This document shows positions 28,413 to 35,480 of a stretch of DNA of 64,000 nt, piece after piece. The notes under the pieces are model-generated. The model searched no databases, was not told where the DNA came from, and saw only the letters and a program-made list of their open reading frames with translations. The first letter of the stretch is position 1; every line of letters begins with the position of its first letter. The stretch spans positions 24,896,001 through 24,960,000 of the forward strand of contig CP068257.2 in NCBI GenBank assembly GCA_009914755.4. Direction: 5' to 3'. This DNA is from the human T2T-CHM13v2.0 reference genome, Homo sapiens. The position numbers and the translations under genes are program-made.

Positions 28413-28515
28413 GAGAGGATATTCCCAATATAAGCGTAGTAGGAGCAACAGTAGGGCGTGGTTCCATCACAGCAGTAAGATTTGCAATCTTTGCCACACT
28501 GAGCAAGGCAATCAT
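28413..28515 (-). CDS. CYYR1: CYYR1 coding exon 2 (103 nt, phase 1 at both ends). It encodes (D)[33 protein letters not shown](S), the Cys/Tyr-rich extracellular segment.
   Basis: Minus-strand acceptor tggtttttgttttgtag|ATGATTGCC has a strong polypyrimidine tract followed by AG. The donor is ...ATCCTCTC|gtgagtattcg, a GTGAGT consensus. The in-frame junction with exon 1 completes an Asp codon (G+AT). The CCxGxxPYCCSYY motif is characteristic of CYYR1. Confidence 0.8.
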
Positions 28516-28874
28516 CTACAAAACAAAAACCACTTGTGAGCAGTTATAGTTGTAAAATCACAGTTTCAAGAAAAATTATTCTATTTCACAACTTAATCAG
28601 CCAATGACCACCCTTTAGTGGTTTTAAATCTTCATTTTCGTCCTCAGAATTCAAAAACATTTGTAAGGATCTAAATTAGCCTCTCTTCCCCATTAGACTC
28701 TAAGCTGTAAAGACAAAGACAACTCTTGAATCTTCTACACCAAGCACCATAATTACCAGTCAGGGTTAGTGGAATGAGATAATGAAGGAAGGAATGAAAG
28801 AACAATTAAACTACTCAGTCGCTGGATTTGTCCATAGAGTTTTTATAATAATTTTTAAATGATAAAGCCTTCTT

Positions 28875-29172
28875 GGCCAGGCAAAATGGCTCACGCATGT
28901 AATCCCAGCACTTTGGGAGGCTGAGGCGGGTGATCACTTGAGGTCAGGAGTCTGAGACCAGCCTGGCCAACATGATAAAATCCCGTGTCTACTAAAAATA
29001 CAAAAAGTAGCTGGGTGTCGTGGTGCACACCTGTAATCTCAGCTACTCAGGAGGCTGAGGCAGGAGAATTACTTGAACCCAGGAGATGGAGGTTGCAATG
29101 AGCCGAGATCATGCCACTGCACTCCAGCCTGGGCGACACAGTGAGGCTCTGTCTCAAAAAAAAAAAAAAAAA
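28875..29172 (+). mobile_element. Alu SINE (AluS-like), located in CYYR1 intron 1.
   Basis: The sequence ggccaggcaaaatggctcacgcatgtaatcccagcactttgggaggctgaggcgggtgatcacttgaggtcaggag... continues to poly-A. The flanks aaagccttctt and aaagagtcttctt resemble a TSD. Confidence 0.9.
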
Positions 29173-30451
29173 GAGTCTTCTTACTTTAGGGTCTTGTATT
29201 CCCAACTGAGCTCAATCAATAGAAGGTTTAGTGGCATATATAATACCAAAAAGGAATAATTTCAAAATGATGTATATTTTTCCATGATAGTGCATTGTAT
29301 GCTTTTCATTTGGTGACTTTTTTTACCTGTATAATTACAGTTTGCATATGTGTGGTAACACAATGAGTCTGCATCCTGTAAATTCATCTGGATGAAAAGA
29401 TGATTGGTTATAGGAAGAAATCCCCATAGACAATTATTTTGTAAATAATGAAGAGTTTACTTAATGTCAGATTGAGGAATCAGTAAGATATAAAACAGTA
29501 CTATGTGAAGGGGGAAGAGTTATTTTCTGAATAAAGGATCAGAAATTACTATTTTTTCCATATATTTTGCTGCAAGAAAAATTATACTAAAAATGTTGGA
29601 TAAAAATTACTCTAGCTTTTAAGTATTCTTTATTCCACCTAAATGATTTATGTTTAACAAGCAAAGGTTGTCACTGACTTAGTCGTATAAGTTATGATGG
29701 ATATATAAGTTTCAGATACATGATTAGGAAAACATTAAGTACAGTCTGATAATTTATGTTGTACATTTAAGAGTCACAAAATAATCCATTTCCAGCTCAA
29801 TTCCTGAAGGTAATATTAATTATTATATAAATTATATAAAACTTTTGTTTCCCTATCAAAGCTATAACATTAAAAATACAAAATATTATATTTATGTCTG
29901 CACGTCCATGTAACTGATTTATCCAGAAAGGAAATTTTACATTGCTTTTAAATCACTTCCCTGCTAAGATGATACTTTACAAAGAGATGTGATTAAAAGG
30001 CAGCAAAGTTCAGTCACCATTAACAATTATGCGTGGCTTTTGTGGAACAAATGGAAAAGTTCGTATTTTCTTCTCCTCAATTTTATTTTTACATTACAGA
30101 TTGTCAAACATGACCCTTGAGGCTTACCTCTGGATTGTGGTATGAAGGAATGAAAGCGAAAAATAATTACCTTTGTGAGATTCAGTAAGTACTTAAGTCC
30201 ACTTTTAAAATTTGAAAACAGAAACAAAATCTAACGATTTAGACACAAGGGAGAAGCCAATATATTGACAATAGATGCTTTTTGCAGAGTACAACAGACT
30301 TTTAAAGGCTATTTATTTTACAGTTTTCTTGGTGAATTTCCATAGCTCTCATTTTTAGTGCTGTTTAATTTATTCAAATATTTAGACTGGTCAGTTATCC
30401 CAAGGGCTTAGTGGGGATGTTTTGCTTCATGTTCTTAAAAGCCATTCAATG

Positions 30452-33658: not shown

Positions 33659-33684
33659 ATAAACAAACAAACAAACAAACAAAA
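33659..33684. repeat. (AAAC)n microsatellite.
   Basis: Direct reading of the sequence. Confidence 0.9.
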
Positions 33685-34839
33685 TTGTGGTTCAATGGAG
33701 TGGTTGAATAAGTGTGAGTGAAAGTATTAAATATTGTCGAGCAGAGGAAGTGAAAAGCATAATTACTTCGAAAGAACTAATAAAGAGATTTTTTCAATAG
33801 AAAATGAATATTAATGCAGTTGACTCTGTTAATCCCTCAAATTCTGAAAACCTTATACAAATTTAATAAAAGAAATAAATGTTGTAAACAGATTAAATGT
33901 AATTCTCTTCATTAAATACGAAGAACTTATCCTACTTTTATGAATTTTCATATTAGAAAGTCAGCATTTTTCCTGCCATAAAACATCTTTAAAATGGTAA
34001 CTCCTAGACAGCCACTAATTTGCATTTCAATAAACAGGCTAAAAATGTCTACAGAAGTTATGGTGACTCTTTTCTAGCAAGGTTGAATGAGAAATTCAAT
34101 TCTTTTAATACTCAGGTGCAACACTGAAGAACATCATTTCAGTTGCAATATCTTTTTGAGTATCAAAGGTAAATTTCAGTGCTATATATACATTTCGTAT
34201 TGGAGGCTCAGGGGTGAGCCTGCGATTTTTGTCATAGGACGTTAGAGACACAAAAACATTTTACAAAGAACTTTGCTTTTAGCTTGCATTGTTTTGTGAA
34301 TATGAACTGATGCAAAGACCACGTGTGTAAGACACTTTATACCTGAATAACCAATGAAAGGCCATTTGGGGCTCCATATTAATCACAAACAAGAAAACCC
34401 ACTTTGCTTCGTTAATTATTAGCAGTTCTTACTACGAATAATTAGAAGGGAAACCAGATGCCCTTCTCTTATAAACAAGTGTCTATCTAAATCAACGAAC
34501 CTGTACAGATTAGACCCTGGGTGAATTCATGCTTCTCAAAAACCTTGTGTTTGACTTCAGTCCAATAGCTCAGTCTACCACACTTGTGAATCTCCCAAAG
34601 AACGAAAACAAAGCTCTAAGTTTTTTTTATTCACAAGAGGGAAAACCAGGACTATTTAGAAAGCAGAAGATGGAGAGGCCACTGCCTAGCCTATCCAGAT
34701 AAGTTTATTTGGATATAGTTTACTCTATCCAGAGAGTCAAATCCCCTAAACACGAGACTGCTATTTCCAAGGTGGAAAGGGAAAGAAAAGAAATGCAAAA
34801 GGTAAAAGTTAAAGGAAAAGGAACAAAACAAAACCGCGT

Positions 34840-35480
34840 GCGGCTGGAAGTGCGCGGGTTTCTGCCGTCGCCTCGCGGAAAAGGCAGAAGCGTCTGCAAA
34901 GGTCCTTCTGCAAAGGTCCCGGTCCGTCCAGCTCAACCCACGTTAGCCCGGACCGTGACCCAAGGGCAGCCCCGAGCCTCTGACCCTCTCCGCCGCCCTC
35001 CGTCACTGACCTGCGTAGACAAAGAGCAGGACCAACTTCGGAAGCAAGACCCCTGGACGCACGGGTAGCCTCGGAGCGTCCATCCAAGCCGGTGGCCTGA
35101 GGCTTGGAGCGAAGGGAGAGCCCGGAACCGGAGGGAATGGGGAGGATGGAGGGCGATCAGATGGAGAGAGCAGCGCTCCTGAGAGCCGGGTGGAGCAGAG
35201 ACCCGGCCATTGCCTAGGGAGCCTTCCAAGGGAGCCCGGGCCGGGCGCGTCCCGGGCCAGCGACTGCGGGACTCCGCGGAGCTGGGGCGCCCGTGGCCCG
35301 AGACGGGCTGCGCTGGGGGCCCAGGTCTCTTTGTCTCGCCCCACTGCGCTCAGGCGCGGGGAAGGCGGCCACTCCGGCGTCCTTGGCCACCCAGGCTCAC
35401 ATTTCATCTCCGCGGGTGGCAACGACTGCGGGCAGGGGGCGGGGGTGGCCCCGACTCCTCCCCAAGCCCGGGTTCTTCCT
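34840..35480. promoter_or_regulatory. CYYR1: CpG island covering the CYYR1 promoter, 5'UTR and exon 1. It is TATA-less and contains GC boxes (e.g. gggggcggggg at ~35437-35447, ggcggggcggg-like runs).
   Basis: There is an abrupt switch from AT-rich flanks to about 65-70% GC with dense CpG (cgcg, gcgcg, ccgcgg). The start codon of a minus-strand gene lies inside the island. Confidence 0.7.
35011..35083 (-). CDS. CYYR1: CYYR1 exon 1, coding part: ATG (plus-strand 'cat' at 35081-35083) through [24 protein letters not shown] plus the first base of the Asp codon. It ends at splice donor GCAG|gtcagt and has a hydrophobic, signal-peptide-like core.
   Basis: Minus-strand translation of 35083->35011 gives [24 protein letters not shown], then G|GTCAGT. 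Read-through hits a stop two codons later (YAGQ*). The segment lies inside the CpG island. The reading frame joins exon 2 (phase 1) to give ...VYA-D-DCLAQC..., which matches the CYYR1 N-terminus as I recall it. Confidence 0.8.

What the first reader, a model, noticed from the sequence alone, without database searches (positions are those of the whole stretch)
28413..35083. The window is the 5' end of human CYYR1 (chr21q21.3), with exons 1 and 2 on the minus strand
On the minus strand, 35083->35011 encodes [24 protein letters not shown] and ends at a GCAG|GTCAGT donor. 28515->28413 begins after a textbook acceptor (tttttgttttgtag|) and ends at a TC|GTGAGT donor. Splicing the two gives ...[41 protein letters not shown], which is the N-terminus of cysteine and tyrosine-rich protein 1 as I remember it. 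That fixes the species and locus, and it means the low-coordinate 28 kb is the large CYYR1 intron 2. The window therefore holds known human DNA, not a novel system.
Basis: partly seen in the sequence, partly recalled or inferred. Interest (0 to 1): 0.55.

Follow-up and report, generated by a model that had tools for sequence, protein, structure and literature searches.

The report
Human CYYR1 gene, 5' end
The window holds the promoter, first two coding exons and first introns of CYYR1, a well-described human chromosome 21 gene, so it is ordinary known DNA and not a new system.

Summary
On the minus strand, 35083->35011 encodes [24 protein letters not shown] and ends at CAG|GTCAGT. The 103 nt at 28515->28413 follow a ttttgttttgtag| acceptor and end at TC|GTGAGT. 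Spliced, they read ...[38 protein letters not shown](S).

The peptide scores 84 bits against Pfam PF10873 (CYYR1; cut-off 31, E 1.9e-23) and contains the family's CCSYYAY box.

Four published human primers match with no mismatch. The bisulfite amplicon has the published length. That anchors the window to hg19 chr21:27,910,177-27,974,176, with the gene on the minus strand. Under this offset, published gene coordinates put the CYYR1 5' end at window 35,547 and its 3' end 71.6 kb beyond the window's left edge.

Exons 3 and 4 are absent, so 1-28412 is part of intron 2. About twelve Alu elements, strong CpG depletion and a single CpG island over exon 1 fit a primate promoter.

No human genome was available, so human versus another great ape could not be separated by alignment. 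Novelty: already known. Interest: low.

The parts
35011..35083 (-). Coding part of CYYR1 exon 1: start codon at 35083-35081, 24 codons plus 1 nt. It encodes the signal-peptide-like N-terminus [24 protein letters not shown]. The donor GT is at 35010-35009.
   Evidence: Human primer #3 matches exactly at 35050-35026. The hydrophobic core lies at residues 11-24, with V-Y-A before the exon boundary.
35084..35547 (-). 5' leader of CYYR1 exon 1. Published hg19 coordinates place a RefSeq gene 5' end at 35547 and the Ensembl ENST00000435845 TSS at about 35427. The leader is 71% G+C.
   Evidence: Offset hg19 = window + 27,910,176. Gene table of PMC8052244. Promoter window of PMC4811509, defined as -1500/+500 around the TSS. 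Human primer #1 matches exactly at 35174-35153. The TSS positions are inferred from coordinates and were not measured here.
34701..35700 (.). The only CpG island in the window (G+C 0.57-0.70, CpG observed/expected 0.68-0.84). It covers exon 1 and the proximal promoter and includes a CCCCGCCCC GC box at about 35447-35433. Published cancer studies assay methylation in this region.
   Evidence: the window as a whole has CpG o/e 0.25 and G+C 0.369. for the sequence. PMC4811509 and PMC13654864 for promoter methylation.
35277..35362 (-). Amplicon of the published human CYYR1 methylation-specific PCR assay108 (hg19 chr21:27945452-27945538).
   Evidence: Both primers match the in-silico bisulfite-converted minus strand. 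The span is 86 bp, as published.
28516..35010 (-). CYYR1 intron 1, 6,495 bp, GT...AG.
28413..28515 (-). CYYR1 exon 2, 103 nt, entering in phase 1 and leaving in phase 2. It encodes the Cys/Tyr-rich extracellular/lumenal segment [34 protein letters not shown](S), which includes the CCSYYAY box.
   Evidence: The hoatzin orthologue has an exon of the same 103 nt with the same phases and 83/103 nt identity.
1..28412 (-). 5' part of CYYR1 intron 2. The window holds no exon 3 (transmembrane segment) and no exon 4 (PPxY tail).
   Evidence: tblastn with bird exon 3 and with the recalled human C-terminus found nothing better than E 0.019, all low-complexity or microsatellite matches. Four exon 3/4 and exon 4 primers are absent even with 3 mismatches allowed. 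By hg19 coordinates the gene's 3' end lies 71.6 kb left of the window.
1..31395 (+). 3' portion of the span of the annotated antisense lncRNA CYYR1-AS1 (hg19 27,765,954-27,941,571, plus strand). Its annotated 3' end maps to 31395, inside CYYR1 intron 1. Its exon positions within the window were not determined.
   Evidence: Coordinates from PMC8052244 and the offset. Position 31395 lies 3 nt upstream of a genomic A10 run at 31398-31407.
35548..64000 (.). Intergenic DNA upstream of CYYR1. It is repeat-rich, with Alus, an L1 fragment and microsatellites. No protein-coding signal was found.

Best explanation
The window is the 5' third of the primate, almost certainly human, CYYR1 gene on chromosome 21. 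It corresponds to hg19 chr21:27,910,177-27,974,176, read along the chromosome's plus strand, with the gene on the minus strand.

A CpG-island promoter at about 34.7-35.7 kb drives transcription leftwards. Exon 1 carries a GC-rich leader and 24 codons of a signal peptide. After a 6.5 kb intron, the 103-nt exon 2 encodes the cysteine- and tyrosine-rich ectodomain with the CCSYYAY box. The remaining 28.4 kb to the left is the start of the large intron 2.

The transmembrane exon 3 and the PPxY-tail exon 4 lie outside the window.

According to the literature (not tested here), the mature protein is a small single-pass membrane protein of late endosomes. Its cytoplasmic PPxY motifs recruit the WW-domain E3 ligases WWP1, WWP2 and ITCH and promote WWP1 degradation. 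Its promoter island is silenced by methylation in some tumours.
For: Shown here:
- Exon sequences, reading frame and canonical splice sites.
- Pfam PF10873 CYYR1 at 84 bits against a cut-off of 31.
- 81-88% identity to database bird CYYR1 proteins.
- The same 103-nt exon 2 with the same phases in hoatzin, where intron 2 is 51.5 kb.
- Two human RT-PCR primers and two human MSP primers match with no mismatch, and the amplicon has the published length.
- Under the resulting offset, the published hg19 gene span of 107,196 bp puts the 5' end at 35,547. This agrees with the '107 kb, 4 small exons, three large introns' of PMC1863428.
- The annotated CYYR1-AS1 end falls 3 nt before an A10 run, a placement only 0.25% of positions share.
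- K16, K33 and K36 agree with the human mutant list.
- There are 12 full-length Alu-like elements and one Rfam Metazoa_SRP-type hit.
- CpG o/e is 0.25, with a single island over exon 1.

From the literature: protein topology and function (PMC11399591; PMC5578492) and promoter methylation (PMC13654864, PMC4811509).
Against: Nothing contradicts the explanation. There are limits.
- The protein database searched holds no mammalian CYYR1, and no human genome was available. Identity to the human reference was therefore checked over 84 primer bases only, plus coordinate consistency.
- A chimpanzee or gorilla orthologue would probably pass these tests as well.
- The TSS positions are taken from annotation coordinates and were not measured.
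- My full-length human protein sequence is recalled from memory. It served only as an extra tblastn query.
Confidence: 0.93

Rival explanations
1. It is the orthologous CYYR1 5' region of a non-human great ape (chimpanzee, bonobo, gorilla, orangutan) and not of human.
For: All positive tests use short human-derived sequences, 84 nt in total. At about 1.2% divergence, roughly a third of such sets would match a chimpanzee perfectly. This estimate is my own. No reference genome was available to discriminate.
Against: Three hg19-anchored features fit one single offset across 4 kb: the MSP amplicon, the CYYR1-AS1 end next to an A-run, and a TSS on a C-A step. Small indels in another ape would tend to break such a fit. 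Human is also by far the commonest source of primate sequence. An Old World monkey is unlikely, because at about 6% divergence 84 perfect bases have a probability below 1%. This estimate is also my own.
Confidence: 0.06
2. It is a CYYR1-derived pseudogene or paralogous copy elsewhere in the genome and not the functional locus.
For: None found. It was considered only because short exon matches alone cannot exclude a copy.
Against: The two coding segments are separated by a 6.5 kb intron with canonical GT-AG sites, which rules out a processed copy. The reading frame is intact. Exon 1 sits in a CpG island. Promoter-specific MSP primers with published chr21 coordinates map here with the right spacing.
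Confidence: 0.005
3. The match is a chance open reading frame in non-coding DNA.
For: None.
Against: Pfam E 1.9e-23. tblastn E 5e-22 to bird orthologues at exactly these coordinates and nowhere else. Exon boundaries are conserved in hoatzin.
Confidence: 0.001

Closest known systems
[quoted passage not shown]
   Same: The N-terminal signal-like peptide, the Cys/Tyr-rich segment with the CCSYYAY box, the lysine positions K16/K33/K36, the exon 1 primer sites, the promoter MSP amplicon, the minus-strand orientation, and a gene geometry of small exons with large introns and a 107 kb span.
   Different: Nothing was found to differ. Only exons 1-2 of 4 are in the window. Full identity to the reference could not be computed.
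Bird CYYR1 orthologues (for example Opisthocomus hoazin, GCA_000692075.1 KK734590.1; proteins P0001-P0006)
   Same: 81-88% protein identity over exon 2. 27 invariant positions, including all seven cysteines and [10 protein letters not shown]. Exon 2 is 103 nt with identical phases. Intron 2 is very large. One roughly 100-bp non-coding block in intron 2 is also shared, colinear and in the same orientation.
   Different: Exon 1 is not annotated in the bird records. 20 of the 103 exon 2 nucleotides differ. The introns are otherwise unalignable.
Shisa-like / STMC6 family of short single-pass PPxY membrane adaptors (WBP1, VOPP1, WBP1L/OPAL1, TMEM92, Shisa), as described in PMC11399591 and PMC5578492
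   Same: According to those papers: a cysteine-rich N-terminal ectodomain, one transmembrane helix and cytoplasmic PPxY motifs that recruit NEDD4-family ligases.
   Different: The relationship was not tested here. The window peptide hits only the CYYR1 Pfam family at E<=1. The TM and PPxY parts lie outside the window.

Membership tests
CYYR1 protein family (Pfam PF10873) | Score above the Pfam gathering threshold | tested here: met
   84 bits against a cut-off of 31, E 1.9e-23. Residues 7-59 align to profile positions 1-52 of 149.
CYYR1 protein family (Pfam PF10873) | Central Cys/Tyr-rich domain with the CCSYYAY box (PMC1863428) | tested here: met
   CCSYYAY lies at residues 47-53. Residues 25-59 contain 7 Cys and 5 Tyr. 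All of them are invariant against five bird sequences.
CYYR1 protein family (Pfam PF10873) | N-terminal signal peptide | tested here: inconclusive
   Basic residues R5 and R9 are followed by a hydrophobic core at residues 11-24 (Kyte-Doolittle up to 2.4) and V-Y-A before residue 25. This fits a signal peptide, but no dedicated predictor was run.
CYYR1 protein family (Pfam PF10873) | Single transmembrane segment (exon 3) | not testable with these tools
   Exon 3 is not in the window. By hg19 coordinates the rest of the gene lies to the left of position 1.
CYYR1 protein family (Pfam PF10873) | Three C-terminal PPPY/PPxY motifs (exon 4) | not testable with these tools
   Exon 4 is not in the window. 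The exon 4 primers are absent.
Human chr21 CYYR1 locus | Exact match to sequences designed on the human reference (AP001696/NM_052954, hg19) | tested here: met
   The four primers (22, 25, 19 and 18 nt) match with 0 mismatches. The MSP pair was matched after bisulfite conversion.
Human chr21 CYYR1 locus | Published genomic coordinates are mutually consistent with the window | tested here: met
   The amplicon span of 86 bp equals the published span. A single offset places the gene 5' end at 35547, a TSS at 35427, and the CYYR1-AS1 end at 31395 beside an A10 run.
Human chr21 CYYR1 locus | Primate genome background (dimeric Alu elements, CpG depletion) | tested here: met
   12 elements of about 280-300 bp match an AluY consensus at 70-90% identity. 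I recalled that consensus from memory. One Rfam Metazoa_SRP hit lies at 5747-5863. CpG o/e is 0.25.
Human chr21 CYYR1 locus | Near-100% identity of the whole 64 kb to GRCh38 and lower identity to other apes | not testable with these tools
   No human or ape genome is held. Exact scans of metagenome and prokaryote genome collections for exon 2 found nothing.

The most novel reading that the evidence does not exclude
Transcripts that start at the annotated 5' ends (window 35547 or 35427) have as their first AUG an in-frame ATG at 35407, in the context gagATGa. No stop codon intervenes before the accepted start at 35083. Such transcripts could in principle produce a CYYR1 proteoform with 108 extra Pro/Gly/Ser/Arg-rich residues in front of the signal peptide, which would bury it. 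Separately, the roughly 100-bp human-bird conserved block in intron 2 (6540-6660) could be a deeply conserved enhancer with PBX/HOX-like TGATTTAT motifs. Neither reading changes the identity of the locus.
Probability: 0.07. Interest if true: 0.25.

Novelty: already known. Interest (0 to 1): 0.05.

Why it matters
Its main value is as a negative result for a scan seeking novel systems. The window is annotated human chromosome 21 DNA carrying a gene described in 2002 and studied functionally since. It can be set aside. The case also shows that such a locus can be anchored to reference coordinates from published primers alone when no genome is at hand.

Tried and rejected
- The protein search of 5.8 billion clusters returned only six bird CYYR1 partial proteins and no mammalian entry. 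It therefore confirmed the family but could not show 100% identity to the human protein.
- A literature search for the peptide strings themselves found no paper.
- The PDB holds no relative.
- Exact DNA scans for exon 2 found nothing in metagenome contigs or in prokaryote genome contigs. I had hoped for human contaminant contigs to align against.
- A degenerate scan of metagenomes found only one true CYYR1 exon 2. It proved to be hoatzin host DNA, 98.4% identical to the hoatzin assembly. The other two loci were 16-residue chance matches.
- The supplement of PMC13654864, which holds its MSP primers, is not held as text.
- A weak tblastn match of the transmembrane region at 5016-4876 contains a stop codon and has 34% identity, so it is not exon 3. 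Matches at 24.9 kb and 61.5 kb are (AC)n/(GT)n microsatellites read as CVCVCV.
- The 202-aa bacterial-style ORF 35003-35611 is only the GC-rich leader read through exon 1 into intron 1. It has no Pfam hit.
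Full report
**Observation**

Reading the minus strand, 35083->35011 is ATG GAC GCT ... TAC GCA G. That is 24 codons ([24 protein letters not shown]) plus one base, followed by the donor gtcagt. 28515->28413 is 103 nt, preceded by gtttttgttttgtag and followed by gtgagt.

Joining the two keeps the frame. The product is [58 protein letters not shown] plus TC, which fixes Ser59.

**What the peptide is**

The peptide scores 84 bits against Pfam PF10873 'CYYR1' (curated cut-off 31, E 1.9e-23), and no other family matches at E<=1.

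The large protein collection holds only bird CYYR1 partial proteins, which are 81-88% identical over exon 2. In an alignment with five of them, 27 positions are invariant. These include all seven cysteines and [10 protein letters not shown]. CCSYYAY is the box that Vitale et al. name as the hallmark of the family (PMC1863428).

tblastn of the bird proteins against the whole window hits only 28412-28528, at E 5e-22.

**Exon structure**

The hoatzin gene (locus L001, GCA_000692075.1) has its exon 2 after a ...ttattcagcag acceptor and before a gtaagt donor. The exon is 103 nt long, has the same entry and exit phases, and shares 83/103 nucleotides with the window. Hoatzin intron 2 is 51.5 kb.

In the window, intron 1 is 6,495 bp.

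**Locus and species**

No human genome is held by the tools, so I used published human reagents.

- Primers #1 and #3 of PMC1863428 were designed on human AP001696/NM_052954 and are described as lying in exon 1. They match exactly at 35174-35153 and 35050-35026 on the minus strand.
- The exon 4 primer and both exon 3/4 junction primers of that paper are absent, even allowing three mismatches. So are two further exon 3/4 and exon 4 primers from PMC11399591.
- The methylation-specific PCR assay108 for the CYYR1 promoter is given in the supplement of PMC4811509 with primers and hg19 position chr21:27945452-27945538, strand -1. After in-silico bisulfite conversion of the minus strand, both primers match, at 35362-35345 and 35295-35277. 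They span 86 bp, exactly as published.

These matches give hg19 = window + 27,910,176. The window runs along the chromosome's plus strand and covers chr21:27,910,177-27,974,176.

Checks on that offset:

- The hg19 gene table in PMC8052244 lists CYYR1 at 27,838,528-27,945,723 (-) and CYYR1-AS1 at 27,765,954-27,941,571 (+).
- The CYYR1 span is 107,196 bp, matching the '107 kb' of Vitale et al.. Its 5' end maps to window 35,547, just upstream of primer #1 and inside the CpG island. Its 3' end lies 71.6 kb beyond the window's left edge.
- The promoter window that PMC4811509 defines as -1500/+500 around the TSS of ENST00000435845 puts that TSS at about 35,427. This is the A of a c-A step, roughly 10-20 nt downstream of a CCCCGCCCC GC box.
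- The CYYR1-AS1 3' end maps to 31,395, 3 nt before a genomic A10 run. Only 0.25% of window positions lie that close to an A>=8 run.

One offset therefore fits independent annotations across 4 kb.

The human CYYR1 mutants in PMC11399591 (K16R, K33-36R) place lysines exactly where the spliced peptide has its only three lysines.

**Genome background**

The window is 36.9% G+C with CpG observed/expected 0.25. It has a single CpG island at 34,701-35,700, over exon 1.

Twelve elements of about 280-300 bp match an AluY consensus at 70-90% identity. I recalled that consensus from memory. One of them reaches Rfam's Metazoa_SRP threshold. Dimeric Alus are primate-specific, which is established knowledge.

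The window also holds a Tigger-like DNA-transposon fossil and an L1 reverse-transcriptase fragment. This is what one expects of AT-rich, gene-poor primate DNA.

**What is not in the window**

Exon 3 (transmembrane) and exon 4 (PPxY tail) are not in the window. The best tblastn matches to those parts have E>=0.019. They are proline-rich leader sequence, microsatellites read as CVCV, or a stretch containing a stop codon.

**How it works**

Shown here: a CpG-island promoter, a leader plus signal-peptide exon, a 6.5 kb intron, and an exon for the Cys/Tyr-rich ectodomain.

Inferred from residue pattern: a signal peptide with basic R5 and R9, a hydrophobic core at residues 11-24, and V-Y-A at the -3 to -1 positions before Asp25.

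From the literature only:
- The complete 154-aa protein is a single-pass membrane protein of Rab7-positive late endosomes. Its three PPxY motifs bind the WW domains of WWP1, WWP2 and ITCH and drive K63 autoubiquitination and lysosomal loss of WWP1 (PMC11399591).
- It is grouped with the Shisa-like/STMC6 adaptors (PMC5578492).
- Its promoter is hypermethylated and silenced in neuroblastoma and lung adenocarcinoma (PMC4811509, PMC13654864).

**Limits**

Identity to the human reference was verified over 84 primer bases and by coordinate consistency, not by alignment of the 64 kb. By my own estimate, a chimpanzee or gorilla orthologue would pass the primer test about one time in three. An Old World monkey would pass less than 1% of the time.

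I put human at about 0.93, another great ape at about 0.06, and everything else at a negligible level.

My attempts to find identical DNA among metagenome or prokaryote-genome contaminants failed.

**Verdict**

The feature is a known, annotated human gene. It is not novel, and interest is low.

Noticed in passing
window 35407-35084 (minus strand): An in-frame ATG at 35407 (context gagATGa) lies 324 nt upstream of the accepted start codon, with no intervening stop. The whole GC-rich leader is open in frame back to 35611. If transcripts start at the annotated 5' ends (35547 or about 35427), this is the first AUG and would add 108 Pro/Gly/Ser/Arg-rich residues ahead of the signal peptide. There is also an out-of-frame 17-codon uORF from 35210 ([17 protein letters not shown]) and a one-codon ATG-TGA at 35402.
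   Followed up: partly
window 31395 (plus strand); A-run 31398-31407: The annotated 3' end of the antisense lncRNA CYYR1-AS1 (hg19 27,941,571) maps 3 nt upstream of a genomic A10 run inside an L1-like sequence (…GGAATACTATGCAGCCAGAAAAAAAAAAG…). There is no AATAAA within 150 nt upstream. The end looks like internal oligo-dT priming and not a true polyadenylation site.
   Followed up: partly
window about 6540-6660 (minus strand) vs L001 about 27380-27500: This block of roughly 100 bp in CYYR1 intron 2 is conserved between the window and hoatzin (blastn core 74 bp, 77% identity, E 2e-8). It is colinear and in the same orientation relative to exon 2, lying 21.9 kb downstream in the window and 24.3 kb downstream in hoatzin. 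It contains CAATAAATCCTAAAT, CCCTTGGGAT and CACTGATTTATGA (PBX/HOX-like). It may be an ancient enhancer or an alternative exon.
   Followed up: partly
window 12706-13574 (plus strand): Two adjacent ORFs (128 and 161 aa) hit Tc5-transposase HTH (20.8 bits, just below the cut-off) and DDE_1 endonuclease (57.6 bits). This is a Tigger/pogo-type DNA transposon fossil inside intron 2.
   Followed up: partly
window 42144-42539 (minus strand); broadly 40-48 kb: A 131-aa ORF hits reverse transcriptase RVT_1 (44 bits). The surrounding 8 kb has strongly negative AT skew (to -0.32). This fits a LINE-1 element on the minus strand upstream of the gene. Positive AT skew at 3-5 kb suggests another L1 on the plus strand.
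   Followed up: no
window 5747-6033, 7712-7985, 10488-10777, 25441-25722, 28887-29162, 38137-38409, 40756-41030, 48894-49181, 50933-51174, 52303-52598, 54553-54844 and fragments: About twelve full-length Alu elements at 70-90% identity to an AluY consensus, so mostly old subfamilies. One sits only about 370 bp upstream of exon 2's acceptor, in intron 1 (28887-29162).
   Followed up: no
window 24860-24975, 4398-4448, 61499-61537, 61805-61835, 44137-44183: Microsatellites: (AC)58, (TG)25, (GT)19, (ACC)10 and (TTAT)12. The long (AC)58 in intron 2 is likely polymorphic. It produced spurious 'CVCVCM' protein matches to the CYYR1 transmembrane segment.
   Followed up: no
L002 (metagenome contig Ga0065711_1008172): A 24.7 kb contig in the JGI metagenome collection carries CYYR1 exon 2 and is 98.4% identical over 5.6 kb to the hoatzin genome assembly. 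It is host DNA in a metagenome, not microbial sequence.
   Followed up: yes
L001 3001-3117 and 54626-54781; protein P0006: The GenBank hoatzin CYYR1 model starts exon 2 inside the polypyrimidine tract (FYSA...) and places the exon 2/3 junction one base off the canonical GT-AG. The Sylvia atricapilla model (P0006) reads through the exon 2 donor (GNCSPSPCK). These are annotation slips in the bird records and not biology.
   Followed up: partly
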